A stretch of DNA of 64,000 nucleotides, from the IMG/VR virus record IMGVR_UViG_3300037067_027627; one strand, 5' to 3'. Of the stretch, positions 3,269 through 21,253 are shown piece by piece; position 1 is the first letter of the stretch, and every line of letters starts with the position of its first letter. Both the position numbers and the translations under genes were made by a program. The DNA is from a virus (taxonomy: Duplodnaviria > Heunggongvirae > Uroviricota > Caudoviricetes). A model generated the notes under the pieces. The model saw only the letters and a list, made by a program, of their open reading frames with translations, searched no databases and was not told the origin of the DNA.

Positions 3269-4102
3269 GTGACCAAAATATCAGATTGTGATGAAATCCC
3301 GGTTCTGAAACGGTATCTTCCGGATCTGGACAAAGTTTATGTTTACCCCCTGTGTGATTTACACTTCGGGGAAACGAAATCGTTTGATGAGAAGAAATTC
3401 AGGGGATATCTGAAAGTTATTGCAGATGTTCCGGAAGCATATTGTATTTTTAACGGAGACTTGATCAATTGTGGTCTCCCGGGTGGAACCGGAGGGGAAG
3501 ATTTTTGGACTCAAGATCCACTCACCCCGCAAGATCAGAACGACACTCTTGTAACACTCGTGCAGGAATACGGAATCGAGGATAAGATTCTCGCAATCGT
3601 TGGTGGATCAAATCACCCCGGGCGCGCAATGAAAGCGATTGGGCATAATTATGACAAGCAGTTTGCTCAGAATCTCGGGCTTCTTGATCGTTATGTAGAC
3701 CCCATCTGTTTACTGTTCCTCGGGGTTGGCAAGAGGAAGAAATCTACCGAAACGCATCATAAAGGAACATCGACGTGGTATTCAATTATCACTACGCATG
3801 GATGGGCCGGGGGACGTTTGGCCGGTTCAAGTATCAACTCGACGAGGGAACTCGGAGCTATTTACGCAGCGGATTGCGTGATTACATCGCACAGGCATCT
3901 TGATGCTGGGACGAAGGATGAGTTCTATCTTCCAGATTACCACAACAAGAGTGTAAACAAGATGAAGCGCATCTTTGTAAGTGCCGGAACATTCCTGAAA
4001 TACTCCCCATATGCAGTTCGTAAAGGTATGCGTCCGAACGGGACAGGCACTCCGCGTATCCGTTTCGACGGTACTAAAAAGGATGTGCATGTGAGCATCT
4101 GA
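3269..4102 (+). CDS. Calcineurin-like metallophosphoesterase
   Basis: Metallophosphoesterase motifs in order: CDLHFGE (D-x-H), FNGDLIN (GD), GGSNHP (GNH), ITSHRH. Confidence 0.7.
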   Translation: MTKISDCDEIPVLKRYLPDLDKVYVYPLCDLHFGETKSFDEKKFRGYLKVIADVPEAYCIFNGDLINCGLPGGTGGEDFWTQDPLTPQDQNDTLVTLVQEYGIEDKILAIVGGSNHPGRAMKAIGHNYDKQFAQNLGLLDRYVDPICLLFLGVGKRKKSTETHHKGTSTWYSIITTHGWAGGRLAGSSINSTRELGAIYAADCVITSHRHLDAGTKDEFYLPDYHNKSVNKMKRIFVSAGTFLKYSPYAVRKGMRPNGTGTPRIRFDGTKKDVHVSI

Positions 4103-4103
4103 T

Positions 4104-4514
4104 ATGGTGATCAAAGTAAAAAAGGATCTCCAAAAAAGAATAGAAACTTTTTTGCACACATGGCCTTCTACAGAAGAGTATGGAGGCTTCCTTTTTTCAA
4201 ATCGTATTGGGAACATATCAGAGTTTCTTGTTATCCCCAATGTGCACGATAGTCGTACAAATACGTACCAGATGCCACTTACTGCGAAAGCACTGGCAGA
4301 AAAGTTTGCAAGCGCACGTAAACTCAAGGTTGTTGCACATTGGCACAATCATCCAACGCCATGCGTTTGCAGCGAACAGGATTGCCGCGCGGCGTCTTAC
4401 TGGGAACCACTGTGGTCGGTAATGATATCGCCTACGGAAAGTGGAAGATACAAAAAAGAGTTCATCTGGTATTTCTACAAGGGTATCAAGCCCGAGAAAG
4501 TTACTTTTATATAG
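4104..4514 (+). CDS. JAB/MPN (JAMM) metalloprotease-like protein
   Basis: EYGGFLF...VVAHWHNHPTPCVCSEQD fits the JAMM pattern E-x(n)-H-x-H-x(7-10)-S-x2-D. Confidence 0.55.
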   Translation: MVIKVKKDLQKRIETFLHTWPSTEEYGGFLFSNRIGNISEFLVIPNVHDSRTNTYQMPLTAKALAEKFASARKLKVVAHWHNHPTPCVCSEQDCRAASYWEPLWSVMISPTESGRYKKEFIWYFYKGIKPEKVTFI

Positions 4515-4529
4515 TAGCACTCGTCTTTA

Positions 4530-4820
4530 TTGACTATGAAATTCAACAAGACGGAGTTCATGCTCGGGAATGTCAATCGGGAGGAATTGCTTTCCAATCC
4601 TCATCCTGCGACCGGATATACTATAGGCAACGGGTATGAAGAGTGTCGCCAGTGTGAATTCTGTGGACGGCAACTTCCGTATAAAAACACAGATACAATA
4701 TTCGAGTCGGAAGAATATCCGTGTTGGACTTGGAAGGCGTTGGTTGCTGGATATACTATATGTGATTATTTCCAAGAGAAATCTCAATATGTGATTGAAC
4801 GTATTACGCGACGAAGATAA
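4530..4820 (+). CDS. Small Cys-rich hypothetical protein
   Basis: 96 aa; C-x2-C...C pairs (CRQCEFCG). Confidence 0.4.
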   Translation: MTMKFNKTEFMLGNVNREELLSNPHPATGYTIGNGYEECRQCEFCGRQLPYKNTDTIFESEEYPCWTWKALVAGYTICDYFQEKSQYVIERITRRR

Positions 4821-4831
4821 CTATCAACTAT

Positions 4832-5470
4832 TTAAACCATCTTGGCATTTCGCCACTCTTCCATTTCGATGTGACGATTTTCCTTTGCGCATGCGCGCAG
4901 GTATGCAATGGCAGAGTCGGCATTCCGTTTATAGCTTATGAGATACATGGTAGATATCGCAATACTGTAGTCTTCGGATGGATTTCCGGTGATAGGGTTT
5001 TGTTTCATAATCCATTGCGAAATTTCATATGTCCCGTGCATCCATCCAACAAACGAATCAAATCCGATAATAAGTTCGCGACTTTTTATTGTAAGATCGG
5101 TTTGTGTCATTGCATCGTGAAGATTACGAACAAATGCCGTGTATTTTCTTATTACAGATCCGGAACAGTAATCTGGGTGAGGAAACCCGTGTTTATCTCT
5201 GCCCGGGTATCCTGCGCCCGGAGGGAGCTGCATATTCCTGCGATGATAATCCAAAAAATCACCGCTTTCAATACACTCAAGCAACTCCATCATGATGCCG
5301 GAGCACTTCGGTTCTATTATAGATACGTAATCCTCATGCGACAGTTCACCGTCTTTGAACTTCTTGTAAGTGCGATACAGGAGATCGTATGCTTCCGTTA
5401 TTCGCCATAGAATATGATCCTCGATCTGCATAATATTATATAATGAACAACCCATTATATAACTATGCAC
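4832..5470 (-). CDS. Hypothetical protein
   Basis: 212-aa ORF. No confident motif. Confidence 0.45.
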   Translation of the reverse strand: MHSYIMGCSLYNIMQIEDHILWRITEAYDLLYRTYKKFKDGELSHEDYVSIIEPKCSGIMMELLECIESGDFLDYHRRNMQLPPGAGYPGRDKHGFPHPDYCSGSVIRKYTAFVRNLHDAMTQTDLTIKSRELIIGFDSFVGWMHGTYEISQWIMKQNPITGNPSEDYSIAISTMYLISYKRNADSAIAYLRACAKENRHIEMEEWRNAKMV

Positions 5471-6235
5471 AAGAGAATGGATATTTCGTGCGATGATGCC
5501 ATCACTCGGTATTTATCTGGGTCTTCGATAAAACAAGTTGCAATATCATGCGGTTGTTCGTCAACAACAATAACTCGCAGATTATCCGATAAGGATATTA
5601 CGAAACGTCCAAGCGGGAGGGTCGGGGTTTATAAAGAAATGACCACGGATCTGGAGGGATTCATAATCGGGATGATGATGGGTGATTCTAGCTTTGCAAA
5701 TGCAAGGAAACGAAAACTGATATCGACCGAGCATTCGATAGCTCAAACTGGGTATTTAATGTGGAAATTTGATAAATTAAGTTATATTATAGGAGGTAAA
5801 ATATATTTTCGAGATCGGTTTGATACTCGAACAAACAGAACATATCACCCGATTGCGTACCATTCTGCAACACACCCCGCGATAGATAAAATGCATCGTG
5901 AGTTCTTTAAAACCGGAACAAAACAGATTACGTCAGAGTTACTAGAGAGGATAACACCGGAAGGGATTGCGGTGTGGTATTGCGACGATGGGTGCCTATA
6001 TAGAAATCCGATGCGGTATACGAATCAACCCACCATTGCTACAAATGCATTTGATGACGATTCTCGTAATCTAATGATGGGTATGTTCAAAGAAAAGTAC
6101 GGGTTGATATTCAAGGTAAACCGTTCCAATGGATCAATACGAATGTGTAATATCACGGGAATACAAAAATTCTTCGCATTGTTTGGTCGTTTTATTCCGG
6201 CTTGCATGGAATACAAAAAGGCGAGTGTATTATGA
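5465..6235 (+). CDS. LAGLIDADG homing endonuclease with an N-terminal HTH
   Basis: Two LAGLIDADG-type motifs, GFIIGMMMGDSSF and GIAVWYCDDGCL. The N-terminus ITRYLSGSSIKQVAISCGCSSTTITRRL is HTH-like. Confidence 0.65.
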   Translation: MHKRMDISCDDAITRYLSGSSIKQVAISCGCSSTTITRRLSDKDITKRPSGRVGVYKEMTTDLEGFIIGMMMGDSSFANARKRKLISTEHSIAQTGYLMWKFDKLSYIIGGKIYFRDRFDTRTNRTYHPIAYHSATHPAIDKMHREFFKTGTKQITSELLERITPEGIAVWYCDDGCLYRNPMRYTNQPTIATNAFDDDSRNLMMGMFKEKYGLIFKVNRSNGSIRMCNITGIQKFFALFGRFIPACMEYKKASVL

Positions 6236-7038
6236 AACCTCGCTGCCTATGTATAGGAGACATCCACGGGAGGGTAACCGCGCTCAATGAAGTGCTCGAC
6301 TCCGCAGATTTTCGGAATGATAAGGATCGGCTTATCACTCTCGGAGATGTGTGCGATGGTGGAGATGATACGCGCGGTGTTATCGATCGTCTTCTCCAGA
6401 TAGAAGATCGGACTGATATACTAGGTAATCATGATGTCTGGTTTAATCAATGGGTATCTTGGAACCGTGAGATATCATTGTGCCCGCAGGAGTATTACCA
6501 TTGGCAGTCGCAAGGTGGGATATGGACAGAACGATCATACGATTTCGATGTTAGAAATGTTCCAATAGAGCATCGTAACTTCCTGAACGGTCAGGTTCCG
6601 TATTATATCGATGATGATAACCGTATATTTGTTCATGGCGGGTTCAATCCAAACAAACCGATAGGGTGCCAAACGGTCGAGTATATAACGTGGGATCGCA
6701 CCTTGATAAAGAAAGCAAAATATCGCCCGATAAAGGGGTATAATCATGTGTTTGTTGGTCACTCGTCAACAATGATGTTCAAAGAGAAGATGACAACGAT
6801 TGCGGGTGGGCGGAAAACAGTATCCCACGTGACAATAACGCATCCAGTGACGTGGCATAATCTGACTATGTGCGACTGCGGGGGTGGATGGACTGGAAGG
6901 TTGGCTATGGTAGATGTCTCCAATCCAGACAATTACTACCTTAGCAGTTTCCAGACGGCAAACCCGGCTCCGTCAATTACCCTATTTGGTACTCTCTGTC
7001 CCACTTCTGACGTTCAGACGCAAGAGGATCGTAGGTAG
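6202..7038 (+). CDS. PPP-family serine/threonine phosphatase or ApaH-like metallophosphatase
   Basis: Motifs CIGDIHGR, TLGDVCDGGDD, ILGNHDVW and VHGG are the GDxHG / GDxxDRG / GNHE pattern. Confidence 0.7.
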   Translation: MHGIQKGECIMKPRCLCIGDIHGRVTALNEVLDSADFRNDKDRLITLGDVCDGGDDTRGVIDRLLQIEDRTDILGNHDVWFNQWVSWNREISLCPQEYYHWQSQGGIWTERSYDFDVRNVPIEHRNFLNGQVPYYIDDDNRIFVHGGFNPNKPIGCQTVEYITWDRTLIKKAKYRPIKGYNHVFVGHSSTMMFKEKMTTIAGGRKTVSHVTITHPVTWHNLTMCDCGGGWTGRLAMVDVSNPDNYYLSSFQTANPAPSITLFGTLCPTSDVQTQEDRR

Positions 7039-8530: not shown

Positions 8531-8587
8531 AACCAGACGAAGAAGAATTAAACCGCAAGCAGGTACAGAATTTCCAGATACCGTGTC

Positions 8588-9978: not shown

Positions 9979-10259
9979 AACGCGGGACTGTTCTGTTTGA
10001 TATACGCGTGCGGATGTTAGATGTAGATCCGACACGCGGGGCTTTTGCGATCGTATTACAGGATTCCGAGGGTGGAATAGAGTGCCCGATTGAAGCATAC
10101 ATGAATACTGTGGATGCTCCGATGGATGATCTGCGTATTAAAATGGCATTCGGTGACATTCGTGATGCAGTTATAGAAGTCATGCGAAAACATTCAGAAG
10201 ACGGAAGCATTGTATACAGGAATAAAAATAAAACGTATGTATCTAGGAAACGCCAGTAG
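9975..10259 (+). CDS. Hypothetical protein
   Basis: 94-aa ORF translationally coupled to the upstream ORF. Its stop codon overlaps the 3' end of tRNA-Asn. Confidence 0.45.
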   Translation: MKRGTVLFDIRVRMLDVDPTRGAFAIVLQDSEGGIECPIEAYMNTVDAPMDDLRIKMAFGDIRDAVIEVMRKHSEDGSIVYRNKNKTYVSRKRQ

Positions 10260-10322
10260 CAGGGCTCGAACCTACGAAACAAGATTAACGGTCTTGCGTG
10301 TTACCAACTACACTATACTGGC
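10251..10322 (-). tRNA. tRNA-Asn (anticodon GTT)
   Basis: Perfect acceptor GCCAGTA/TACTGGC. D-stem GTGT/ACAC. Anticodon arm CAAGA-CCGTTAA-TCTTG (C33 is unusual). T-arm GTAGG-TTCGAGC-CCTGC. Discriminator G. Confidence 0.7.
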
Positions 10323-10325
10323 TCA

Positions 10326-10409
10326 TCGGTGATGCAGGATTTGAACCTGCGAAAGCCCTTCGACAACGGATCTTGAATCCGTCCCGTTTGACCACTCCGG
10401 CAATCACCG
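10326..10409 (-). tRNA. tRNA-Leu (anticodon CAA)
   Basis: Acceptor CGGTGAT/ATCACCG. Anticodon arm ACGGA-TTCAAGA-TCCGT. 15-nt variable arm TGTCGAAGGGCTTTC. T-arm GCAGG-TTCAAAT-CCTGC. Discriminator A. Confidence 0.75.
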
Positions 10410-10411
10410 TA

Positions 10412-10495
10412 TACGCCGGGCAAGATTCGAACTTGCGAAAGCCCTTCGACACCGGGTTCTAAGCCCGGCGGATTTGACCACTCTCCCACCGACGT
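10412..10495 (-). tRNA. tRNA-Leu (anticodon TAG)
   Basis: Acceptor ACGTCGG/CCGGCGT. Anticodon arm CCGGG-CTTAGAA-CCCGG. Same long variable arm as the neighbouring Leu. T-arm GCAAG-TTCGAAT-CTTGC. Discriminator A. Only 2 nt from the next tRNA. Confidence 0.75.
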
Positions 10496-10536
10496 TCTTG
10501 TTAGTTTTGTTATCTTTGTTAGTTCCCTCTCGGGAA

Positions 10537-10619
10537 TGCGTCCGACAGGACTTGAACCTGTATTGTTTCCTCGTGCTCGACTTTAAATCGAGTGCGTTCA
10601 ACCGTTTCGCCACGGACGC
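10537..10619 (-). tRNA. tRNA-Leu (anticodon TAA)
   Basis: Acceptor GCGTCCG/CGGACGC. Anticodon arm CTCGA-TTTAAAG-TCGAG. Long variable region. T-arm ACAGG-TTCAAGT-CCTGT. Discriminator A. Confidence 0.65.
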
Positions 10620-10622
10620 GCA

Positions 10623-10704
10623 TAAGTGGAGCCGGATTCGCACCGGCGACGTTTCCTCGTCCAGAATCTCGATCTGGTGGAGTCGGCTTCTGTCCCATCC
10701 ACTT
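10623..10704 (-). tRNA. tRNA-Leu (anticodon GAG)
   Basis: Acceptor AAGTGGA/TCCACTT. Anticodon arm CCAGA-TCGAGAT-TCTGG. Variable hairpin ACGAGGAAACGTC. T-arm GCCGG-TGCGAAT-CCGGC with G55. Discriminator A. Confidence 0.65.
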
Positions 10705-10738
10705 TCTTTCAACTATCTGGAATTTCCAGACAGTTGAA

Positions 10739-10823
10739 CGATACCGGTAGGAATTGAACCTACAAAGTCTTTCGACCCGGCTGCTTTCAAGGCAGTTTAG
10801 CGCACCACACTACCCACGGTACC
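10739..10823 (-). tRNA. tRNA-Ser (anticodon TGA)
   Basis: Acceptor GGTACCG/CGGTATC. Anticodon loop CTTGAAA. Long variable arm. T-arm GTAGG-TTCAATT-CCTAC. Discriminator G. Confidence 0.55.
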
Positions 10824-10891
10824 ATTTGTTCTGCGAGGCGGTACAGGGGTGTTACCCCGCGACCTTTAGGAGAATCGCCCTACCCCGCATA
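10824..10891. ncRNA. Unresolved 68-nt structured spacer between tRNA-Ser and tRNA-Cys; possibly a non-canonical or degenerate tRNA
   Basis: Contains the GGGGTGTTACCCC hairpin and GGCG...CGCC pairing, but no canonical T-loop could be placed. Confidence 0.2.
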
Positions 10892-10974
10892 AGGACATAA
10901 CAGGATTCGAACCTGTGAAGGGAAATCCCTGTGGATCTGCAATCCACCGCAATTGACCGCTCTGCCATATGCCC
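10892..10974 (-). tRNA. tRNA-Cys (anticodon GCA) with an unusually long (14-nt) variable region
   Basis: Acceptor GGGCATA/TATGTCC. Anticodon arm GTGGA-TTGCAGA-TCCAC. T-arm ACAGG-TTCGAAT-CCTGT. Discriminator U, the universal Cys identity. Extra hairpin AGGGATTTCCCT in the variable position. Confidence 0.55.
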
Positions 10975-11011
10975 ATTTCTTTTCAGGTATTAAGTAATTC
11001 TTAACACCTCA

Positions 11012-11096
11012 CGCCCCGTGCTGGAATCGAACCAACGCCACCCAACGGGTGCACAACGATTAGCAGTCGTGGGGATTACCGCTCTCCCAACGGGGC
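11012..11096 (-). tRNA. tRNA-Ser (anticodon GCT)
   Basis: Acceptor GCCCCGT/ACGGGGC. Anticodon loop CTGCTAA. Long variable arm GTGCACCCGTTGGGTGGC. T-arm GTTGG-TTCGATT-CCAGC. Discriminator G. Confidence 0.65.
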
Positions 11097-11241
11097 AAAA
11101 AACCTATACTAGCCGCTTATAGACTAAGCAAGCGACACGAGGACAGACTATTCAGTAAAGAGACAACCTTAGAAACGTTTCCATCTCTTTCACCGTATCT
11201 GAACATAATAATATGTTGGGCGGGGATCTATATAAAGTTAG

Positions 11242-12366
11242 TTATCGCCGCTCGATTTGTTGTTTTTCTGCATGCATCCGCGTGCTTGAAATTCTTTGCC
11301 CTGTCGCGTCAGTAACCAGTGGTATGAGACAGATGGCAACAGGAGGAAGTGAATACATTTTCCGAAGATCGTTAACGTACTCAGCATTCTCTTTTGTTTC
11401 TTCACTTGCTACGAGAATGTCGTAGAATGGGTTCATTCCGACATCTCCCCACGCATCCACCAGTGGTTTAAACATGTAATCCGCATGATACTTCTTTGAT
11501 TTTATATAGTCTTTTATCTGGTTTATACGAACTTTGTACGGCTGAACCGGATGAGTTTTCTTGCTTGCCATGTGATCGCTTGTAATCCCGATATGTACAG
11601 CTCCCCCGTTCCCAGCAAGAGAGAATGCCGCATCTAATAACGCTCTATGCCCTGCGTGTAAGAGATCGAATGTCCCTCCAACCACAATCTCGGGGCGATT
11701 CATACGAATCATCCCTAGAATATTCTCAACCATTTTATTTCCCAAGAGTTTCTGGATAACCGGGGTATAGAATATCGGATCGCGTCTCATGAGTTTGATA
11801 AGAATATCTTTGCGCGCGCGATAGTATACTGTGGCCGGAACAAAAGCGTATTCTTCCCGTATCCAGTTTTCGATTTCCTCATAATGATGTGACGCCGTGT
11901 AAGCCAAATCAATATCCATAACCAAGGCTTCGTCAGGGTTTCGCGGAGGTTCCACATGTTCTGTCGCCAGAATATACGACTTTATTCGTTCGATAACAAC
12001 GAGATCTGGGGTCTTACCCGATCGGTTGTATAGTTCTGACATTACAGATTCACATCCATCCGCACTTATCCTTACATTTTCATGATCTGTGGAATGGGTG
12101 TCATAAACAATATCGTGGAAGAATAACGCCAGAATTGCTTCGTCCGGGTAATTAAACTCGTGACGGAACCACGCAGCGTTTGATATGCATTCAGTGAGAT
12201 GGTTTATGCTGTGGTATTTACGTGATTTATGCGTATACGGTTTCACTACAGTAATGAAGAAGTAATCGAGACTGTCGTGGAGTCCCAGATTTTCGCATGC
12301 ATCTCGCCACATGTCATATAAATACTGCTGGGATTCCGTTGGTATAGCAATTCTTGAATTTGCCAT
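11242..12366 (-). CDS. HD-domain phosphohydrolase fused to NMN/NaMN adenylyltransferase (NadM/NadD-like cytidylyltransferase fold)
   Basis: The C-terminal half carries the nucleotidyltransferase (H/T)xGH motif, GGTFDLLHAGH. The N-terminal half has HD-like His/Asp residues (HSINHL...FFHDIVYD). Start trimmed to MANSRIAIP at 12366 to remove overlap with the divergent gene. Confidence 0.6.
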   Translation of the reverse strand: MANSRIAIPTESQQYLYDMWRDACENLGLHDSLDYFFITVVKPYTHKSRKYHSINHLTECISNAAWFRHEFNYPDEAILALFFHDIVYDTHSTDHENVRISADGCESVMSELYNRSGKTPDLVVIERIKSYILATEHVEPPRNPDEALVMDIDLAYTASHHYEEIENWIREEYAFVPATVYYRARKDILIKLMRRDPIFYTPVIQKLLGNKMVENILGMIRMNRPEIVVGGTFDLLHAGHRALLDAAFSLAGNGGAVHIGITSDHMASKKTHPVQPYKVRINQIKDYIKSKKYHADYMFKPLVDAWGDVGMNPFYDILVASEETKENAEYVNDLRKMYSLPPVAICLIPLVTDATGQRISSTRMHAEKQQIERR

Positions 12367-12419
12367 AATAACTCTTGATACAGGAAGAATATAAATATAG
12401 CTACTACCATTTTTAATAC

Positions 12420-13580
12420 ATGGATGACATCGCGTGGATGAATGAGCCTGAGGCTGCAAAAGCACTTGTATATAATATGCTCAATGTAACGCGTATTTTG
12501 TCTCCGACAGGAATGGAACGCGAGATGACCGCGTTCTGCAACGAAGAATTAATAAAATGCGGATTTGAAACGCACATCGATACACATGGAAATATAATGG
12601 CAATACGTGGGCGGGATTCCCAAGATAAATTCATTCTTCTTAATTCTCATATGGATACTGTCCCGATAAACAGGCCGCGATCTCGCCTTTCACTTAGAGA
12701 AGAATATGTGAAAAAACGGAACGATATTCTCACTCGCAGGTTTGGTGTAAAATGCAGATATGTATCAGAAGGGAAAGCACTGATAAGAGCGAGAGATCAC
12801 TATGATACATCAGGATCGTTGTCATTTGAAAGTAGGGAAATGCACGAGTTATATGACCAAGAGCACAAGCAATTCCAAGCCGAACTCGAAGATTTAGAAC
12901 GATTTGTGAAAGACAACGAGAAAAACACTGACGTGTGGGTAGAAGAAGTATCAAACCCTTGGGAACCGCAAAGAATAGTATATAATCCAAGTGCTACTGC
13001 CATCGAGATCACCGAAGGACGGGGAGAGATGTATATGGGCGGGGATGATAAAGCCGGGGTTGCGATGATTCTTACTATTGCTCAACTCACGGATTACCCG
13101 TTGAAAATATTATTTACGGTATCAGAGGAAGAATTCGATATACGCGTTCCCGACCCAGACGATTCTGACCGTACTATCCGTGTATCCGGGGTTCACACGA
13201 TTCCCCCCGACTTCTATGACGATGTTGCGTTTGATTTGACACTGGATAAAGGAGAGGGCAATCTGCTTGTTCCAAAAATAAGCGGGAAGTTGTTATGTGG
13301 TGAAGATCTCGTGACTTTCATATTGCATGTATCAGAAATTGCAGATTACCCGCTTAAAGTAGTGGAAGGATTACGATGTGATGCACTTTACATACGTGAC
13401 CATGTTCCAGCCGTGAATATGTCCACGGGATATCACAACCCGCACCGTCCTAACGATTATGTTAATATTATAGAATCGCATAATATGATGGCTCTTGTAC
13501 GCAAAATTATAACAGAATATAATGCAACCAAGCCTGTGTTTGATCGTATTAAGAAAAAGAAACCTAAAACATCCGATTAG
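12420..13580 (+). CDS. M20-family metallopeptidase (ArgE/DapE/peptidase T-like)
   Basis: LNSHMDTV (H-x-D), GGDDKAGVAMILTIAQ (metal-binding Asp) and FTVSEEEFD (EE) form the M20 dinuclear-zinc signature. Confidence 0.65.
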   Translation: MDDIAWMNEPEAAKALVYNMLNVTRILSPTGMEREMTAFCNEELIKCGFETHIDTHGNIMAIRGRDSQDKFILLNSHMDTVPINRPRSRLSLREEYVKKRNDILTRRFGVKCRYVSEGKALIRARDHYDTSGSLSFESREMHELYDQEHKQFQAELEDLERFVKDNEKNTDVWVEEVSNPWEPQRIVYNPSATAIEITEGRGEMYMGGDDKAGVAMILTIAQLTDYPLKILFTVSEEEFDIRVPDPDDSDRTIRVSGVHTIPPDFYDDVAFDLTLDKGEGNLLVPKISGKLLCGEDLVTFILHVSEIADYPLKVVEGLRCDALYIRDHVPAVNMSTGYHNPHRPNDYVNIIESHNMMALVRKIITEYNATKPVFDRIKKKKPKTSD

Positions 13581-15231: not shown

Positions 15232-15837
15232 TCACACGAATTCTGTAGTGGTTTCTGATCCGTGCCCAGACCATGTTGTAAATGTTTTCTGGTAACACTC
15301 CAAGAAGTCTTGTATATCTTCGAGATTATCGAAGAGGGTCATCGAACTATACTCGCTGCATGTGTTCCACGGTTTGCGCAGACCAACCCCGATTTTATTC
15401 TTTGCGAGTGCCGCATTTATCGTGTCTGCGCGGTCGTCTACCACAACAGCAACGCGTGGATTGTCGAACATCGATGTTTTGTCGGAAGATACAACAACCT
15501 CGTCATATACAAGATCGTGTATTTTCAGCCATTCTACGAGTTCCGCACGGTATTCGTCCTTGCGATGAGATGCGATAATCACATGGAACTTCGATTTCAT
15601 GAATTTCAGGAACTGTTCGGCATACGGGTATGGATTATAACTGCACTGGTGAGAATGGACGCGATTAAAAACTTCAATCACCTGATCCTGACCAGAGTAT
15701 TTATATATCGCTTCCCATCCGGTACATTCCCGTCGTTTGGGAATGCGAACCCCCATTTCAGATCCCGTTGCAAAAACAGCATCGTGAAAAGCCCATAGTG
15801 TTTCATCCACATCAACGATTGCGATTGGCTTCGACAT
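15232..15837 (-). CDS. HAD-superfamily hydrolase, 5'(3')-deoxyribonucleotidase-like
   Basis: The N-terminus MSKPIAIVDVDETLW carries the HAD motif I, DxDx(T/V). Confidence 0.55.
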   Translation of the reverse strand: MSKPIAIVDVDETLWAFHDAVFATGSEMGVRIPKRRECTGWEAIYKYSGQDQVIEVFNRVHSHQCSYNPYPYAEQFLKFMKSKFHVIIASHRKDEYRAELVEWLKIHDLVYDEVVVSSDKTSMFDNPRVAVVVDDRADTINAALAKNKIGVGLRKPWNTCSEYSSMTLFDNLEDIQDFLECYQKTFTTWSGHGSETTTEFV

Positions 15838-16560: not shown

Positions 16561-16563
16561 ATG

Positions 16564-16974
16564 TTATTCCTTCTGTTTCCATTCTTCGCAATGTATCACA
16601 TGACTGCCTCTGCCCGGGTAAGGGCACTCTGGTCGTCTATACTTCTCACAACTTAGGCAGTATACGAATCCACTGTAATGAATCATCGACGCATCCGTCA
16701 CAATCGGGTGCACTTCTATGAATGGGCGATCTCCGCAGCTACTACCATCCTCATCAATGTTCCCGGGTTTCATCTTGTTCAATTGTTCAGCCATTAATAC
16801 CCAAGATGATGAGTCATATCCTTCTCGAATGTCGTGATCAATCATATCCTTGCATTCTTCGATACATCCTTTGCGAAGAATCTCGAATAGTTCAATAGAC
16901 GTTTCCACCGACATCGTTACAAACTTGACACTATGTGTGTCGTAACCTTTAATCCCCACCAGATATGCTTTCAT
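16564..16974 (-). CDS. Hypothetical protein
   Basis: 136-aa ORF. Confidence 0.45.
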   Translation of the reverse strand: MKAYLVGIKGYDTHSVKFVTMSVETSIELFEILRKGCIEECKDMIDHDIREGYDSSSWVLMAEQLNKMKPGNIDEDGSSCGDRPFIEVHPIVTDASMIHYSGFVYCLSCEKYRRPECPYPGRGSHVIHCEEWKQKE

Positions 16975-16978
16975 GTGT

Positions 16979-17257
16979 TCACCCGCATGGTAATTTTACG
17001 CAGTTATCACCATCATACTCATGTGCAACGAACTTGAACGTGTCCAGACTTATCAGAGACGAGCAGTGAATCCCGCCGATATTGCAAGGGCAACCTTTCA
17101 CATTACACCCGGCGACGTATAACTTCTTCTCAGTTACGTAATACAAAACAGGTATAAGAGAAAGCCCATCTGTGGATTTCCCTTCTTTAGCAATCTCCAT
17201 ACGGCAGTTGCCGCAAAAGAGGTTACCTACCTCTTTTCCACACCGATCGCATTTCAT
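16979..17257 (-). CDS. Zinc-ribbon protein
   Basis: MKCDRCGKEVGNLFCGNCRME plus a later CxxC. Confidence 0.45.
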   Translation of the reverse strand: MKCDRCGKEVGNLFCGNCRMEIAKEGKSTDGLSLIPVLYYVTEKKLYVAGCNVKGCPCNIGGIHCSSLISLDTFKFVAHEYDGDNCVKLPCG

Positions 17258-17577
17258 TTCTTGATCTCTGTTGTCTTTGATCGAGCTTGTTCGATTGATT
17301 TGCGAATCACAGGAGCTGCTTTCTCATACATATCAATCCGTGCGATAATAAACGCAGCGTAATTAATAATGTCGATAAGCTCGTCCCGCTTCTTCTTGTT
17401 GTCGGAAGAGTAAAAAGCCCGCGTGGCTTTATACATCAGGACGCCTTCCAACGCTTCAACCGGGGCAACATCTTTCGGTTCCTGCGTATACAGTGTACCA
17501 CGTTCGATCTTTGTGCTTACGACTTCGCGCATAACCGCAAGATAACTCTCGTCTTTCTTACTGCCATCTTCTGTCAT
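17254..17577 (-). CDS. Hypothetical protein
   Basis: 107 aa; 4-nt overlaps at both ends. Confidence 0.45.
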   Translation of the reverse strand: MTEDGSKKDESYLAVMREVVSTKIERGTLYTQEPKDVAPVEALEGVLMYKATRAFYSSDNKKKRDELIDIINYAAFIIARIDMYEKAAPVIRKSIEQARSKTTEIKK

Positions 17578-18044
17578 GTTTTTCCTAACCTTTTATGTAA
17601 TACTGATTTCACAATTGATATAAAACCATCATACTGTTTCTTTTCCGGGATCGATACAAGATCTCTCCTGTAGTTTTTCCAGTGTTCTTCATATAGTTCT
17701 CGTGTCCGTGTAATTTGAAACTCTTGTATGTGATACGCAAACCCGGCGCGCCCGTTCCCGAGATCCCCGGCTTCACGATATACTACAGAATAGTCTTCAA
17801 GCGCACAGAGTGAGTGCCAAACTTCCGATTTCGTCATTACCCACGCAAGAGAGGATACCATTGTGGAAACCGATATGGGTTTATTTAATATGAAGTTGTA
17901 ATGGTAAATCTCACAAGCAAGCTTCAAATCTTCGGACAGTCGGCAATACATGTTGTCTTCTGCCATCCATCCGTCGATGCATCTTCGCAAATGCCACAAA
18001 CCGTCGTTCCATATGCGTTCACAATTCTCGTTTTCGAATTCCAT
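17574..18044 (-). CDS. Hypothetical protein
   Basis: 156-aa ORF. Confidence 0.45.
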   Translation of the reverse strand: MEFENENCERIWNDGLWHLRRCIDGWMAEDNMYCRLSEDLKLACEIYHYNFILNKPISVSTMVSSLAWVMTKSEVWHSLCALEDYSVVYREAGDLGNGRAGFAYHIQEFQITRTRELYEEHWKNYRRDLVSIPEKKQYDGFISIVKSVLHKRLGKT

Positions 18045-18180
18045 TATACACTTCCGATCATTGACGTGTATGACAAAGCTGCATAGTATATAGATATGAA
18101 TACCAGTATTGTCATAAGAATGATAATCATAAACATATATTCTATGGGAGTTACAAAAATTGTCATCATAATCACCGTTA

Positions 18181-18543
18181 CTATGCGTATTTCAATGATA
18201 ACGTGTATGAAACCCACGTCATGTATTCCGGGTTTGCCGCCTGTATTGCATATACTCCAAACAGAAGACACCCAATGGCCCCAATGATTGCGAATATAAC
18301 GACACCAATCGCGAATCCAATACAGAACTCGGTAAACATCCTATATGTATCCTGTGTTGTTAAGAGACTGACAAATCCGAATACAAATCCCCCGAGTATA
18401 ACCAGAACAAGCCACGCAACAACCATATTCGACCATATAGTTGCTTCAGACATTTGTGCGCTCGTATAAACCGAGAATACGTATTCCTTTGTTACTCCGA
18501 AATAATCCGCGATCTGCGGGATATATCTAATTCCGTCTGTCAT
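18181..18543 (-). CDS. Membrane protein (2-3 TM segments)
   Basis: Hydrophobic segments VVAWLVLVILGGFVFGFVSLL and FCIGFAIGVVIFAIIGAIGCLLFGVY. Confidence 0.45.
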   Translation of the reverse strand: MTDGIRYIPQIADYFGVTKEYVFSVYTSAQMSEATIWSNMVVAWLVLVILGGFVFGFVSLLTTQDTYRMFTEFCIGFAIGVVIFAIIGAIGCLLFGVYAIQAANPEYMTWVSYTLSLKYA

Positions 18544-19151
18544 GGTGCGTCATCACTCCCATAAAAATCATCCACTTCGTCAGATTTCATCTGTGCGAAT
18601 GGATCACCGGCGTTGAATTCTTCAGCCTTGAAAATACTAATATCCGAAACTCGTTTCTTTATTGGATGGAACATCTCGTGCACAGATTCCGGCAACCTGT
18701 CCACATTAGTTACAGACAAGTCACGGATTCCATCTATCTGGTCATTTTGTCTAGATACTTGTCTAGATACCCGTTCGGGTGATTGCCCGGAAGGTTTCTG
18801 GTTGATACGTTTCCACGTGTCACTTTCCTTCACGTCGTGCACTTGAAGATCCGCACGTTCCGTGGAATCCGTATGTTCGGTGGTTGCCTCAAATGTTTTA
18901 CATCCAAGGATTCTCAGCATACGCACTGTACTGGTATAGATGAAGAACGGGGATCGTTCGGATGCGCATGCACATCGTATGAACGCATCTTTCGGAATTG
19001 GTGTGAATGCATACGATTTCGGTTCAAGTTTGTGGATCTCCAATTCGATCTTCCGGAACCATCCCCGGTTGTAAATGCACCCGTTCTCACAGTGATCCTG
19101 TTGCTCTACAAATGACATTGTGTTCTCTCCTTGCTTTCTTTGACTGTTCAT
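18540..19151 (-). CDS. Hypothetical protein
   Basis: 203-aa ORF overlapping its neighbours by 4 nt. Confidence 0.45.
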   Translation of the reverse strand: MNSQRKQGENTMSFVEQQDHCENGCIYNRGWFRKIELEIHKLEPKSYAFTPIPKDAFIRCACASERSPFFIYTSTVRMLRILGCKTFEATTEHTDSTERADLQVHDVKESDTWKRINQKPSGQSPERVSRQVSRQNDQIDGIRDLSVTNVDRLPESVHEMFHPIKKRVSDISIFKAEEFNAGDPFAQMKSDEVDDFYGSDDAP

Positions 19152-19546
19152 TCATGCTGATCCTGACCTGATGTGGTGCTCTTCCGTAGTCGTTCTCTTT
19201 CAATCTTCATAATCAATTCATTATACGCGGAATCAGAGAACATACTGGTGTGCCTCTTGATCCACCTTTCCATAATATCCAGCGTTGCGATCGTGGCGGT
19301 GCGGGCTGATTCCTTTGCTGCAATACCCATCATGTATTTACATTCGTCCTTCGTAATTGGTTTCGGTGCCGGGGTGTGCAGATGGAAACTTAAATTAGGA
19401 CACCCCAGTTCTATTTTCATACATTCAGTACATGATTTATATTTATGGCAAGTCCCTATTCCTTTCATTGTGGTTTCACCGGCTTCCTGCAACACTGGCA
19501 TTTGCTCGAACCGAATCAAGAGTTCGAACCACCCCGAGATACTCAC
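19148..19546 (-). CDS. Hypothetical Cys-rich protein
   Basis: 132-aa ORF. Confidence 0.4.
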   Translation of the reverse strand: MSISGWFELLIRFEQMPVLQEAGETTMKGIGTCHKYKSCTECMKIELGCPNLSFHLHTPAPKPITKDECKYMMGIAAKESARTATIATLDIMERWIKRHTSMFSDSAYNELIMKIERERLRKSTTSGQDQHE

Positions 19547-20171
19547 GGAATATCAACGCGTTTGTTGATTTTGGAAGCTTCGTTCTCGTGTAAGCGGCAT
19601 CGATCATGTCTAATAAAGCATCGATCTCATCTCGGTTCGTTGTTGGTGGTGCGGGTTCGAATGCAACACCTTTCCCGTCCAGAAGATTAATACCAAACTG
19701 GAGAGTGCGGAACGCAGATCGCAATGCTTTCTCTTCTGATACAGATCCTTTCCGTTTTGTGATATCAGCTAGTTGACTTATCGCCATCCCACGGACTGAC
19801 CAGTACGTAGATGCAGCCAGATTCTTCGAAACGATATCACGAAGTTTATCATACTCTACGGATCTTGTGATTACATGCGGGCTCATTACTGCCCAAATCG
19901 CATTACAGTTCCCTTTTATAAGTAAATCTACAAGGTGCCCGATCTCCATGAACTGGAACTCCCATTCCCCAAGATCGTTTTCGTGTTTGCGGAATGGCAT
20001 AGTTTCCGGAATTCGCCACCCTTCCAATATTCTTAACGTAGGATATTGATACACTATCATGATGTCGTGGTCACTATCAGGGGTGTCCATCCCCCACATA
20101 TGCGATCCAATTACAGTTCTGAAAAGTTCTTTCCCGGGTAAATTTTGACCGGGAAAAGTTTTAGTTTCCAT
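19476..20171 (-). CDS. Pol-beta-superfamily nucleotidyltransferase (minimal nucleotidyltransferase fold)
   Basis: GSHMWGMDTPDSDHDIMIVY fits the G[SG]-x9-13-D-x-[DE] signature. Confidence 0.55.
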   Translation of the reverse strand: METKTFPGQNLPGKELFRTVIGSHMWGMDTPDSDHDIMIVYQYPTLRILEGWRIPETMPFRKHENDLGEWEFQFMEIGHLVDLLIKGNCNAIWAVMSPHVITRSVEYDKLRDIVSKNLAASTYWSVRGMAISQLADITKRKGSVSEEKALRSAFRTLQFGINLLDGKGVAFEPAPPTTNRDEIDALLDMIDAAYTRTKLPKSTNALIFREYLGVVRTLDSVRANASVAGSR

Positions 20172-21253
20172 TATCGCGCCTCGTTCCTAATCATTTTCTC
20201 TTGTGACCAGTGTTTACTCGTTGTCACGTGACCCGTACGAACATACTTCGCAACGTTCTGGTCGAATTCATTGAATGGGTACGAATACATACTTCTGACC
20301 ACAATTCCTTCGTGCCCGTGTCTAACAACAAGATCACCCCATGATTTCACTTCGCGTTCTAGGTCTCTTGCAGATGATATCCGCATCGGAACCAGTGGGT
20401 ATCCTTGGTGATGTTCATTATACATCTCGTATAACGTCGGTGTCGTAGAGACGTTCAGTATCTGCGCCCAGTCCTTAACCGATGCCCAGCTCGCCCACTC
20501 TGCATGATTGTGATCATAAACTGCGAAAAGTTGCAGGTATCCCCTGTTGAGGGCAAGATCTCCTATATAATGAATGGAGTGTTTCGCATATAACCACTCC
20601 CCAAATATCTGTACACCGTCCGGAATCAGATCCCGCATCACCGCATGCATAGATTTCACCATCGCAAACGATGGGTGTGGGGCATCGTGCGCATTCCGCG
20701 CAGCAACACCACGATTATCGAACGTGACATTACTCCCATCCATCTTCAAAGTGAATACGATATCCTTGTTGCACAGGGATTCCCACGGCATTATCCCATT
20801 TTCACGTTTCTCTTCAACGTGACCCCCGGGACTATTGCGGAAGAATGGAGTATGCGGGTACTTTATGCGTAGTCCTTTTGCGGAGGACAGATTTGGGATC
20901 GTGTGGGGAACGCCCCACTTGTTAAACTCCGTAAATGGTGACTTCACAACGATCAGTTTCTTCGGGTAGATCGCAGGAGAAATCCCGCACCATTTCCTGA
21001 GTTGATTCGGGGTGATTGCGCCTTTCTCTGCATCCATATGATGATTCTCACACAATGGCGCACCGTTCCCGTACACATACCCGCCATTTTCGGTATGTGC
21101 GTCCCACAATGCCCGTTCGAGTATGTGATGAGCGTCAACCGCCGCGTTCTTACACCACGGTACACAACACTTTCCATTATGTATCGCGAATGTTTCTTCC
21201 CGGAACTTCGCCCTTACCGGGTTCTGTTCCTTTCTGTTTGACATTGTTATCAC
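20171..21253 (-). CDS. HNH endonuclease domain fused to an ATP-dependent RNA ligase (Rnl-like nucleotidyltransferase)
   Basis: N-terminal HNH: CCVPWC...DAHHI...LCENHH. Ligase motif I KxDG in VFTLKMDGSNVTF. Motif IV-like EGIVVRS and motif V-like LYAKHSIHY. The first ~70 nt overlap the upstream ORF, so the true start may be downstream. Confidence 0.6.
   Translation of the reverse strand: MITMSNRKEQNPVRAKFREETFAIHNGKCCVPWCKNAAVDAHHILERALWDAHTENGGYVYGNGAPLCENHHMDAEKGAITPNQLRKWCGISPAIYPKKLIVVKSPFTEFNKWGVPHTIPNLSSAKGLRIKYPHTPFFRNSPGGHVEEKRENGIMPWESLCNKDIVFTLKMDGSNVTFDNRGVAARNAHDAPHPSFAMVKSMHAVMRDLIPDGVQIFGEWLYAKHSIHYIGDLALNRGYLQLFAVYDHNHAEWASWASVKDWAQILNVSTTPTLYEMYNEHHQGYPLVPMRISSARDLEREVKSWGDLVVRHGHEGIVVRSMYSYPFNEFDQNVAKYVRTGHVTTSKHWSQEKMIRNEAR

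What the first reader, a model, noticed from the sequence alone, without database searches (positions are those of the whole stretch)
3269..21253. RNA-repair / tRNA-maintenance toolkit: HNH-RNA ligase fusion, nucleotidyltransferase and phosphoesterases alongside two tRNA islands
Several genes in this window point to RNA end-healing and sealing.

- The ORF at 20171..21253 combines an N-terminal HNH nuclease motif (CCVPWC..DAHHI..LCENHH) with the covalent-lysine motif I KMDG and motif IV EGIVVRS of ATP-dependent RNA ligases.
- Immediately upstream (19476..20171) is a minimal Pol-beta-type nucleotidyltransferase (GS..D.D), the fold used by CCA-adding and other end-modifying enzymes.
- Two calcineurin-like phosphoesterases (3269..4102, 6202..7038) could provide 2',3'-cyclic phosphodiesterase / 3'-phosphatase end-healing activity, as in bacterial Pnkp.

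Together with at least 14 tRNA genes, the Rsr/Y-RNA module and the tRNA-like processing signals, this element invests heavily in tRNA/RNA maintenance. That is typical of viruses countering host anticodon nucleases (the T4 Pnkp/Rnl1 paradigm) and of Rsr-RtcB repair operons.

An HNH-Rnl fusion is itself unusual.
Basis: inference. Interest (0 to 1): 0.7.

Follow-up and report, generated by a model that had tools for sequence, protein, structure and literature searches.

The report
Phage HNH–RNA ligase plus RlaP repair pair
A large phage-like genome fragment carries a nuclease-fused RNA ligase directly coupled to an RNA-end nucleotide adder, next to 15 tRNA genes; this tRNA-repair kit is a kind already described in jumbo phages, so it is a new member, not a new invention.

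Summary
The ORFs, motifs and tRNA islands are real.

- **Ligase.** 20171-21253 lies on the minus strand. It encodes an N-terminal HNH fold fused to a PF09414 RNA-ligase nucleotidyltransferase domain.
- **Partner.** Its stop codon overlaps the start (TAATG) of 19476-20171. [quoted passage not shown]

The fusion is not unusual. It was noted in 2016 and 2021 comparative-genomics papers. It occurs full-length in 17 phage records and in 66 of the top 150 metagenomic cluster representatives. The same ligase domain also occurs alone, and inside "Swiss Army Knife" RNA-repair proteins with 2H, kinase and phosphatase domains. This supports an RNA-repair role.

The healing half of the proposed toolkit is weak:

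- No polynucleotide kinase, 2H, RtcB or CCA-adding enzyme was detected among the ORFs scanned.
- 6202-7038 is a generic lambda-phosphatase/NinI-like enzyme. Its homologue does sit directly after a stand-alone ligase, near T4-Pnkp-like genes, in one other phage lineage.
- 3269-4102 is a metallophosphoesterase with no RNA link.

Verdict: observation confirmed, interpretation partly supported, a new member of a known kind. What the HNH domain does remains open.

The parts
20171..21253 (-). HNH-RNA ligase fusion gene (360 aa from GTG; probable true start ATG 21244, 357 aa)
   Evidence: Pfam RNA_ligase 1.8e-20 and phrog_24030 'RNA ligase' 8e-64. AF2 model pLDDT 92.6, pTM 0.91. 296 homologues with E<=1e-5, nearly all full-length.
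20969..21214 (-). HNH (beta-beta-alpha-metal) domain, about aa 14-95. C29/C34/C68/H71 is a putative zinc site. H42-H43, N63 and H72 are the catalytic-type residues.
20174..20866 (-). Ligase nucleotidyltransferase domain, about aa 130-360. Motif I is K170-M-D-G-S-N, with R186, E219 (FGEW), E315-G316 (EGIVVR) and K336/R339. There is no C-terminal or OB accessory domain.
19476..20171 (-). RlaP-family Pol-beta nucleotidyltransferase (231 aa). Its start codon overlaps the ligase stop (TAATG).
   Evidence: Pfam PF10127 4.1e-11 and phrog_388 6.7e-19. G22-S23, D34 and D36 are invariant and E76 is nearly invariant. Sequence overlap seen.
15232..15837 (-). HAD-superfamily phosphatase (DVDET motif). Weak candidate 3'-phosphatase. 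It is a conserved downstream neighbour of the ligase in related phages.
   Evidence: Weak Pfam NIF/NT5C hits. phrog_415 'polynucleotide kinase' 8.7e-8. Homologues lie downstream of the ligase in L008 (2e-75) and L010 (1e-52).
6202..7038 (+). Lambda-phosphatase/ApaH/NinI-like metallophosphoesterase (probable start 6232). Possible RNA end-healing enzyme, unproven.
   Evidence: Pfam Metallophos 2.2e-9 and phrog_246 2e-43. PDB matches 2qjc, 5vjv and 1g5b. A homologue is the gene directly after a stand-alone ligase in L035 and L039-L043.
3269..4102 (+). Calcineurin-like metallophosphoesterase of unknown specificity. No evidence ties it to RNA repair.
   Evidence: phrog_7339 'DNA repair exonuclease' 1.6e-18. 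Foldseek gives generic MPE hits, with the best TM-score to the PolD small subunit. It is adjacent to the other phosphoesterase in relative L061.
470..2638 (-). tRNA island 1: Lys(CTT), Glu(CTC), Arg(TCG), Asp(GTC), His(GTG), Gln(CTG), plus a CAU-anticodon tRNA that ARAGORN missed.
10251..11097 (-). tRNA island 2: Asn, four Leu, two Ser, Cys.
34092..35621 (-). TROVE/Ro60-like RNA-binding protein with a vWA domain.
   Evidence: Pfam TROVE 2.6e-22 and vWA_Ro60 1.4e-6. phrog_850 4e-45.

Best explanation
The core of this finding is a two-gene, translationally coupled RNA-repair module in a large phage-like genome.

**Proposed mechanism**
1. The C-terminal domain of the 20171-21253 protein is an ATP-dependent RNA ligase. 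Lysine 170 is adenylylated, AMP is passed to an RNA 5'-phosphate, and a 3'-OH attacks to seal the break.
2. The downstream RlaP enzyme adds one or two nucleotides to an RNA 3'-OH. A tRNA that lost a nucleotide after cleavage, as with RloC-type anticodon nucleases, could then be refilled before sealing.
3. Together with 15 phage tRNA genes and a Ro/TROVE protein, this keeps translation running when host defences cut tRNAs.

**Shown here**
- Domain identities.
- Conserved catalytic residues.
- Folds.
- Gene overlap.
- Family distribution.

**Inferred**
- The substrate is tRNA.
- RlaP and the ligase cooperate.
- The trigger is a host nuclease.

**Open points**
- The HNH domain is conserved and looks catalytically competent, but its role is unknown. 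The published guess is DNA attack on competitors.
- Enzymes that would make ligatable ends are not identified. No kinase was detected. The candidates are the HAD protein at 15232-15837 and the lambda-phosphatase-like protein at 6202-7038.
For: **RNA ligase identity**
- Pfam RNA_ligase 74.2 bits and phrog_24030 8e-64.
- The family profile hits Naegleria RNA ligase among PDB sequences.
- Motifs I, Ia, III, IV and V are invariant in 61 homologues.

**RNA-repair context of the ligase clade**
- The same ligase domain (E 1e-50 to 1e-65 against the family profile) is embedded in proteins with 2H-SAK, a P-loop/tRNA-ligase kinase and a PTP-SAK phosphatase.
- As a stand-alone gene, it sits beside T4-Pnkp-like kinase-HAD genes and a lambda-phosphatase homologue in L035-L043.

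**RlaP**
- Pfam above cut-off.
- Catalytic GS/DxD conserved.
- Stop and start codons overlap.
- In vitro, RlaP adds 1-2 NMP to RNA 3'-OH and helps restore aminoacylation of over-damaged tRNA (PMC12776372).
- The jumbo-phage survey links RlaP to RNA ligases (PMC7824862).
- A second RlaP lies 1 kb from the ligase in relative L010.

**Wider setting**
- 15 tRNAs and a TROVE protein are in the same window.
Against: - No polynucleotide kinase, Pnkp-like protein, 2H phosphoesterase, RtcB or CCA-adding enzyme was detected among the window ORFs tested. It is therefore unclear how 2',3'-cyclic-phosphate/5'-OH ends would be made ligatable. The window covers only about half of a 124.8-kb contig.
- The ligase-RlaP adjacency is not conserved.
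  - Close syntenic relatives have an NAD kinase at RlaP's position.
  - The closest RlaP homologues are not near a ligase.
  - My local RlaP profile found none within 10 kb of 45 viral ligase loci. That profile has limited reach.
- HNH domains usually cut DNA.
- No biochemical data exist for any HNH-Rnl fusion in the searchable literature.
Confidence: 0.55

Rival explanations
1. Trim-fill-seal. The HNH domain is itself the end-healing enzyme. It clips the terminal nucleotide(s) from a broken RNA, leaving 3'-OH and 5'-phosphate ends. RlaP then refills the lost 1-2 nucleotides and the ligase seals. No kinase or phosphatase is needed.
For: - HNH nucleases generate 3'-OH/5'-P ends, which is established chemistry of the family. 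Those are exactly the ligase's substrates.
- HNH catalytic residues are invariant across the family.
- The high pTM of 0.91 suggests the two domains form one unit.
- No Pnkp-like kinase was found in the window or in the flanks of 12 other HNH-fused loci. Stand-alone ligase loci of one lineage do have Pnkp-like genes nearby.
- RlaP adds exactly 1-2 nucleotides (PMC12776372).
Against: - It is purely inferential.
- The kinase contrast rests on essentially one stand-alone lineage and on flanks of 10 kb or less, not whole genomes.
- RlaP is absent next to most HNH-Rnl genes.
- Untemplated refilling would rarely restore the right sequence.
- HNH enzymes are mostly DNases.
Confidence: 0.1
2. The fusion acts on DNA. 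The HNH domain nicks or cuts DNA (competitor phage, host, or the phage's own genome) and the ligase domain seals DNA or DNA/RNA-hybrid nicks. The tRNA context would then be coincidental.
For: - The HNH fold matches DNA nucleases: the GVE2 HNH endonuclease, McrA, IscB and Cas9.
- Iyer et al. 2021 propose that the HNH domain attacks superinfecting phage or host DNA.
Against: - Pfam assigns the domain to RNA_ligase, with no DNA-ligase or capping-enzyme hit.
- The clade is fused to RNA-healing domains in Swiss-Army-Knife proteins.
- It is adjacent to Pnkp-like genes elsewhere.
- Here it is translationally coupled to an RNA-specific RlaP (PMC12776372).
Confidence: 0.15
3. There is no integrated toolkit. 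The ligase, RlaP, phosphoesterases, tRNAs and Ro protein are independent accessory genes of a large phage that merely share a window. The phosphoesterases serve other roles, such as protein dephosphorylation, Ap4A or signal-nucleotide degradation, or DNA processing.
For: - The phosphoesterases are 13-17 kb from the ligase, on the other strand, and separated from it by a tRNA island.
- 6202-7038 belongs to a family present in 966 phage records, many of them lambda-like. Its best PDB matches are ApaH-like and Ser/Thr phosphatases.
- 3269-4102 resembles nuclease-type and generic MPEs.
- No neighbour is conserved across independent HNH-Rnl lineages.
Against: - The ligase-RlaP overlap argues for co-expression of at least that pair.
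- A homologue of 6202-7038 is directly adjacent to the same ligase clade in L035 and L039-L043.
Confidence: 0.2

Closest known systems
HNH-fused 'Rnl2-family' RNA ligases of jumbo phages (Burroughs and Aravind 2016; Iyer et al. 2021, PMC7824862). Examples: Halovirus HGTV-1 gp233, Caulobacter phage CcrSC gp219, Acinetobacter phage ME3 gp200; phrog_24030.
   Same: Same two-domain architecture over the full length (27-32% identity, 93-99% coverage). The HNH and ligase residues are invariant in both. The genome setting is also the same: a jumbo phage rich in tRNA genes.
   Different: It is a distant member, with no nucleotide-level match to any deposited phage. Here it is translationally coupled to RlaP, which is not the case in HGTV-1, CcrSC or ME3.
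T4 Rnl2 and Naegleria/Deinococcus Rnl5 nick-sealing RNA ligases
   Different: It lacks the Rnl2 C-terminal domain and the Rnl5 N-terminal OB-like domain. The accessory module is an N-terminal HNH domain instead.
RlaP nucleotidyltransferases (PF10127), such as P. fluorescens RlaP in the RtcB-RtcA operon and T4 NrdC.11
   Same: Pfam membership, the GS/DxD catalytic core, and linkage to an RNA ligase gene.
   Different: It is a short form (231 aa). It partners a 5'-phosphate ligase rather than RtcB. No PDB relative is detectable by sequence.
T4 Pnkp + Rnl1 and bacterial Pnkp/Hen1 healing-and-sealing systems
   Same: The proposed logic is the same: repair of nuclease-broken tRNA. A lambda-phosphatase-type metallophosphoesterase is present, as in bacterial Pnkp.
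   Different: No kinase was detected. The phosphoesterase is neither fused to nor adjacent to the ligase. The ligase is not of Rnl1 or Rnl4 type.
'Swiss Army Knife' multidomain RNA-repair proteins (2H-SAK, Rnl, kinase, PTP-SAK)
   Same: They contain the same ligase clade, including the KYPxT and FGEWLYAKHSIHY signatures.
   Different: The window protein has none of the 2H, kinase or PTP domains. It has HNH instead.

Membership tests
ATP-dependent RNA ligase, PF09414 (Rnl2/Rnl5-type nucleotidyltransferase) | Profile match above the curated cut-off | tested here: met
   74.2 bits against a cut-off of 27, aa 164-338 covering model positions 2-171 of 171.
ATP-dependent RNA ligase, PF09414 (Rnl2/Rnl5-type nucleotidyltransferase) | Covalent nucleotidyltransferase motifs: I (KxDGxN), Ia, III, IV and V | tested here: met
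   K170, D172, G173, R186, E219, E315, G316, K336 and R339 are invariant in 61 sequences. N175 is at least 90% conserved.
ATP-dependent RNA ligase, PF09414 (Rnl2/Rnl5-type nucleotidyltransferase) | Fold closest to RNA ligases rather than DNA ligases or capping enzymes | tested here: met
ATP-dependent RNA ligase, PF09414 (Rnl2/Rnl5-type nucleotidyltransferase) | Ligase-adenylate formation and RNA sealing activity | not testable with these tools
   Needs biochemistry.
T4 Rnl2 family in the strict sense | C-terminal helical domain required for nick sealing | tested here: not met
Rnl5 (Naegleria / Deinococcus) | N-terminal OB-like domain | tested here: not met
   The N-terminal domain is an HNH fold.
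HNH (beta-beta-alpha-metal) nucleases | His-Asn-His catalytic triad with a Cys/His zinc site, and the HNH fold | tested here: met
HNH (beta-beta-alpha-metal) nucleases | Pfam HNH profile hit on the window protein itself | tested here: not met
   There is no PF01844 hit at E<=0.01 for the window protein. The HGTV-1 orthologue does hit, at 4e-5.
RlaP (PF10127) | Profile match above the cut-off, and the Pol-beta GS...DxD core | tested here: met
   43.5 bits against a cut-off of 23. G22, S23, D34 and D36 are invariant. All 12 homologues carry a precomputed PF10127 assignment.
RlaP (PF10127) | Gene linkage to an RNA ligase | tested here: met
   The stop and start codons overlap with the ligase gene.
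RlaP (PF10127) | Addition of 1-2 NMP to RNA 3'-OH | not testable with these tools
   Shown only for the Pseudomonas enzymes (PMC12776372).
Pnkp-type end-healing (T4 Pnkp or bacterial Pnkp) | P-loop polynucleotide 5'-kinase | tested here: not met
   No Walker-A motif occurs in any plausible ORF. Kinase and Pnkp profiles built from related loci give no hit.
Pnkp-type end-healing (T4 Pnkp or bacterial Pnkp) | Phosphoesterase fused or adjacent to the kinase or ligase | tested here: not met
   In the window, 6202-7038 and 3269-4102 are 13-17 kb from the ligase and on the other strand. A homologue of 6202-7038 is adjacent to the ligase in L035 and L039-L043.
Rsr/Ro-Y RNA-RtcB repair module | TROVE protein | tested here: met
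   Pfam TROVE 2.6e-22 and vWA_Ro60.
Rsr/Ro-Y RNA-RtcB repair module | Y RNA / YrlA gene next to it | tested here: inconclusive
   There is no Rfam match in 33000-37500, and the upstream region does not fold better than shuffles (z -0.56). Only a T-arm-like motif was seen.
Rsr/Ro-Y RNA-RtcB repair module | RtcB ligase | tested here: not met
   No RtcB hit was found among the window ORFs of 340 aa or longer that were scanned.

The most novel reading that the evidence does not exclude
The HNH domain is an RNA end-trimming nuclease. It converts 2',3'-cyclic-phosphate/5'-OH breaks into 3'-OH/5'-phosphate ends by clipping terminal nucleotides. RlaP restores the clipped 1-2 nucleotides and the fused ligase seals. 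This would be a kinase- and phosphatase-independent RNA repair pathway. It would explain why HNH-fused ligases travel without Pnkp, while stand-alone ligases of the same clade sit next to Pnkp-like genes.
Probability: 0.1. Interest if true: 0.75.

Novelty: new member of a known kind. Interest (0 to 1): 0.3.

Why it matters
Phage RNA-repair genes show which host defences, such as anticodon nucleases, a phage must survive.

This locus adds a clean example of an HNH-RNA ligase translationally coupled to RlaP. That pairing makes it a convenient system for two unanswered questions:
- What does the conserved HNH domain do in these widespread but biochemically untouched fusions?
- Does RlaP really cooperate with a 5'-phosphate ligase?

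It does not reveal a new class of system.

Tried and rejected
- **Nucleotide search.** A megablast search of the locus against deposited phages gave no match.
- **PDB sequence searches.**
  - Single-sequence searches with the ligase, RlaP and 3269-4102 gave nothing.
  - The RlaP profile also gave nothing.
- **Literature.**
  - Burroughs and Aravind 2016 is not held.
  - The 2021 review has no text supplements.
- **Source contig.** The JGI gene call P0001, a truncated form of the ligase, could not be traced to its contig. I therefore could not scan the rest of the 124.8-kb contig.
- **RlaP near ligases.** A local RlaP profile found RlaP near a ligase only in the window and in L010, among 45 viral loci. 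The profile has limited sensitivity.
- **Conserved neighbours.** An all-against-all neighbour search across 13 HNH-Rnl loci found no partner conserved beyond within-lineage synteny.
- **Promoters and terminators.** Counts were near random (promoter-like sites) or only modestly above it (terminator-like sites), and no site stood out.
- **Y RNA.** An Rfam E-value search found none near the Ro gene.
- **Rejected: CCA-adding enzyme.** I considered this identity for 19476-20171. Pfam assigns it to RlaP instead.
- **Rejected: homing endonuclease.** I considered the HNH domain to be a recently inserted homing endonuclease. The conserved fusion in 66 of the top 150 cluster representatives argues against it.
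- **Remaining ORFs.** Pfam scans of mid-size ORFs found no further repair enzymes.

Full report
**1. What is in the sequence**

The window has about 45% G+C with densely packed short ORFs. It has no nucleotide-level match to any deposited phage. Its gene content resembles the accessory region of a very large phage:
- two tRNA islands and a LAGLIDADG homing endonuclease;
- NAMPT, a TROVE/Ro protein, an MT-A70 methylase and an integrase;
- many PHROG families.

The phage assignment is an inference. No structural genes lie in the window.

Two corrections apply.

- *Strand and order.* The ligase (20171-21253) and the nucleotidyltransferase (19476-20171) are on the minus strand. The nucleotidyltransferase is therefore downstream of the ligase. 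Its ATG overlaps the ligase TAA (TAATG), which is a typical translationally coupled pair.
- *Start codons.* The ligase probably starts at ATG 21244 (MSNRKEQ...) behind a GGTGA ribosome-binding site, matching homologue N-termini. The 6202-7038 gene probably starts at ATG 6232.

Public gene calls for this very gene are truncated: 288 aa at JGI and 301 aa in a Logan assembly. They miss the HNH domain, probably because the upstream ORF 21177-21515 overlaps the start by about 68 nt.

**2. The HNH-ligase fusion**

*Ligase domain*
- Residues 164-338 match Pfam RNA_ligase PF09414 at 74.2 bits (cut-off 27). No DNA-ligase or capping-enzyme family is reported.
- PHROG 24030, 'RNA ligase', matches at 8e-64.
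- An alignment of 61 homologues shows the ligase residues invariant: K170, D172, G173 (motif I), R186, E219, E315, G316, K336 and R339.

*HNH domain*
- A complete HNH signature is also invariant in that alignment: C29, C34, D40, H42, H43, N63, C68, H71, H72 and E76.

*Structure*
- AlphaFold2 gives a confident single-body model (pLDDT 92.6, pTM 0.91).
- The best DNA ligase follows at 12.0, and capping enzymes score 9.1 or lower.
- Foldseek gives the same order.
- The family profile finds Naegleria RNA ligase among PDB sequences (E 8e-4) and weakly finds the IscB HNH region.

The domain does not group with DNA ligases or capping enzymes, and the ORF is not split in relatives. The protein is not a strict member of Rnl2 (no C-terminal domain) or Rnl5 (no OB-like N-terminal domain). 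It is a PF09414 nucleotidyltransferase domain whose accessory module is HNH.

**3. The fusion is not unusual**

- Full-length homologues (27-32% identity, 93-99% coverage) occur in 17 phage records. These include Caulobacter jumbo phages, Halovirus HGTV-1, Ralstonia RsoM2USA, Salicola SCTP-2, Acinetobacter ME3 and uncultured huge phages.
- HGTV-1 already annotates its copy as 'RNA ligase / HNH endonuclease domain'.
- The metagenome protein search returned 296 homologues with E<=1e-5. Almost all of the 120 listed cover 90% or more of the query.
- An exhaustive profile search found 3905 cluster representatives at E<=1e-3, and 582 at E<=1e-30.
- The top 150 representatives break down as follows:
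  - 66 are HNH+ligase proteins of the same size;
  - 46 are stand-alone ligase domains of about 215 aa;
  - 20 are large multidomain proteins;
  - 6 are long proteins whose profile match is split;
  - 12 are other or fragmentary.
- Iyer et al. [quoted passage not shown] They suggest the HNH domain attacks competitor or host DNA (PMC7824862).
- I found no biochemical study of such a fusion in the searchable library.

**4. Evidence that this ligase clade works in RNA repair**

- Large proteins carrying the same ligase domain combine it with a 2H phosphoesterase (2H-SAK), a P-loop kinase (AAA_33/tRNA_lig_kinase) and a PTP-type phosphatase (PTP-SAK). These are the 'Swiss Army Knife' healing-and-sealing architecture.
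- In one lineage of large viral contigs (L035-L043), the ligases are 60-93% identical to each other. There the stand-alone ligase lies 5-7 kb downstream of one or two T4-Pnkp-like genes (GxxGSGKS kinase plus DLDGT HAD phosphatase, about 315 aa).
- In L035 and L039-L043 it is also followed directly by a metallophosphoesterase.
- These fusions and neighbourhoods are the strongest computational support for an RNA substrate.

**5. The nucleotidyltransferase is RlaP**

- The 231-aa protein matches Pfam PF10127 (43.5 bits, cut-off 23) and phrog_388.
- G22, S23, D34 and D36 are invariant and E76 is nearly invariant.
- RlaP was named for its operonic linkage to RNA ligases.
- A 2025 preprint shows that Pseudomonas RlaPs add one or two NMPs to RNA 3'-OH ends. 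It proposes that they rescue tRNAs which lost nucleotides to 'smart' ribotoxins such as RloC, and notes that this is chemically compatible with 5'-phosphate ligases (PMC12776372).
- Iyer et al. call RlaP the most prevalent such enzyme in jumbo phages, with a distribution that mirrors that of RNA ligases.

The adjacency seen here is not a fixed feature.
- Syntenic relatives L008 and L009 have an NAD kinase at RlaP's position.
- L010 has an RlaP 1 kb upstream of the ligase.
- The closest RlaP homologues are not near a ligase.
- No neighbour is conserved across independent HNH-Rnl lineages.

So RlaP looks like a cassette placed behind an otherwise autonomous ligase gene.

**6. The phosphoesterases**

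*6202-7038*
- It is a lambda-phosphatase/ApaH/NinI-like enzyme: Pfam Metallophos; phrog_246 2e-43; PDB 2qjc, 5vjv and 1g5b.
- The family occurs in 966 phage records, many of them lambda-like phages. Membership alone says little.
- In its favour, the metallophosphoesterase directly after the stand-alone ligase in L035 and L039-L043 is its homologue (E 1e-12 to 1e-15).
- It also weakly matches a Pnkp-like PHROG (phrog_8238).
- Iyer et al. note that calcineurin-like domains occasionally supply the healing phosphatase.

*3269-4102*
- It is a bona fide metallophosphoesterase, with invariant motifs and a calcineurin-like fold.
- It resembles generic or nuclease-type members. The PolD small subunit gives the best TM-score, and phage relatives are annotated 'DNA repair exonuclease'.
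- It has no RNA connection.

*Both together*
- In relative L061 the two phosphoesterase genes are adjacent. In the window they are separated by a JAB gene and a LAGLIDADG homing endonuclease.
- They may work together, but on what is unknown.
- Both lie 13-17 kb from the ligase, on the opposite strand.

**7. What is missing**

- No Walker-A kinase is in the window.
- Kinase and Pnkp profiles built from related loci give no hit.
- Pfam scans of the larger and most mid-size ORFs found no 2H, RtcB or CCA-adding enzyme.
- A HAD phosphatase (15232-15837, DVDET motif) is conserved downstream of the ligase in relatives. It weakly matches a 'polynucleotide kinase' PHROG. It is a better-placed but still weak healing candidate.
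- The window is only part of a contig of at least 124.8 kb, so absence from the genome is not shown.

**8. Most likely mechanism, and rivals**

*Best supported (confidence about 0.55).* This is a phage tRNA/RNA repair pair. RlaP extends trimmed 3'-OH ends and the ligase domain seals 3'-OH/5'-P breaks through a K170-AMP intermediate. It is backed by 15 phage tRNAs and a Ro protein. Several of those tRNAs (Lys, Arg, Asp, His, Asn, Gln, Glu) are isoacceptor types that known anticodon nucleases target. That last point is my background knowledge and was not tested here.

*Rivals.*
- A DNA-directed nick/seal enzyme (0.15).
- No integrated toolkit beyond the gene pair (0.2).
- A speculative trim-fill-seal pathway in which HNH itself heals the ends (0.1).

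The last is suggested by HNH chemistry (3'-OH/5'-P products), by the 1-2 nucleotide addition by RlaP, and by the lack of Pnkp near 13 HNH-fused loci compared with its presence near one stand-alone lineage. That contrast rests on few independent lineages and on short flanks.

**9. Verdict**

This is a new, divergent member of an already described kind: the jumbo-phage RNA-repair complement of HNH-Rnl2-family ligase, RlaP, Ro and tRNAs. Interest is modest. The open question worth an experiment is what the conserved HNH domain does.

Noticed in passing
window 2568-2638 (-): A fifteenth tRNA found by Rfam (47 bits) but missed by ARAGORN. It folds as a cloverleaf with anticodon CAU (Met or Ile2 type).
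   Followed up: partly
window 20171-21253 (-) and 21177-21515 (-): Public gene calls for this exact ligase start at internal codons (288 aa at JGI, 301 aa at Logan) and so omit the HNH domain. The upstream Cys-rich ORF overlaps the true start by about 68 nt.
   Followed up: partly
window 5465-6235 (+); L061 992-2820: A LAGLIDADG homing endonuclease (Pfam 1.8e-25) ends exactly at the probable start of the phosphoesterase gene. In relative L061 the two phosphoesterase genes are directly adjacent, which suggests mobile-element insertion or rearrangement between them in the window.
   Followed up: partly
window 4104-4514 (+): A JAB/MPN-like deubiquitinase-type protein with an HxH...D motif (Prok-JAB 2.6e-5, just below the cut-off) lies immediately after the 3269-4102 phosphoesterase. 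It could be a counter-defence pair.
   Followed up: no
window 27244-28674 (-), 11242-12465 (-); L008 5160-5939, L009 8484-9302: There is an NAD-related gene set. NAMPT is 6 kb upstream of the ligase. An HD-phosphohydrolase fused to a PPAT-like adenylyltransferase (NCBIfam 1.4e-42) sits directly upstream of tRNA island 2. In syntenic relatives an NAD kinase occupies the slot that RlaP holds here.
   Followed up: partly
window 35622-36000 (-), motif at 35772-35789: The roughly 900-bp gene-poor region upstream of the TROVE/Ro gene contains a tRNA T-arm-like hairpin (GGCGG-UUCAACU-CCGUC). It has no Rfam match and no unusual folding energy. A Y-RNA/YrlA-like partner is neither shown nor excluded.
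   Followed up: partly
window 31479-32504 (-); L001 2189-3091; L017 7232-8140; L014 8726-10567: SPFH/Band-7 genes recur near HNH-Rnl (HGTV-1, L017 and the window) and directly after the closest RlaP homologue (L014/L015). The association is unexplained.
   Followed up: no
protein P0150 (736 aa, metagenomic homologue): This is an HNH-Rnl homologue interrupted by an intein that carries a LAGLIDADG endonuclease, inserted in the ligase domain near motif I. Five other homologues of about 530-740 aa show a similarly split profile match but were not scanned.
   Followed up: partly
L004/L005 (protein P0017): One HNH-Rnl homologue (45% identity) sits in a cellular-looking context (ABC transporter, Zip, UbiA, acetyltransferase) on a 161-kb contig. 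The fusion is therefore not confined to phages.
   Followed up: no
window 43810-50677: A cluster of an MT-A70 methyltransferase, a radical SAM/SPASM protein and a tyrosine integrase. Beyond it lie very large ORFs (768 and 1461 aa) of unknown function.
   Followed up: no
L011, L012, L013: Identical RlaP protein sequences, each preceded by the ligase gene or a contig-truncated ORF in its position, occur in three other assemblies (Logan SRR18595300, ENA ERZ27247358, JGI 3300014205). The 3269-4102 protein has many homologues at 65-87% identity. This phage group appears to recur in environmental samples.
   Followed up: no
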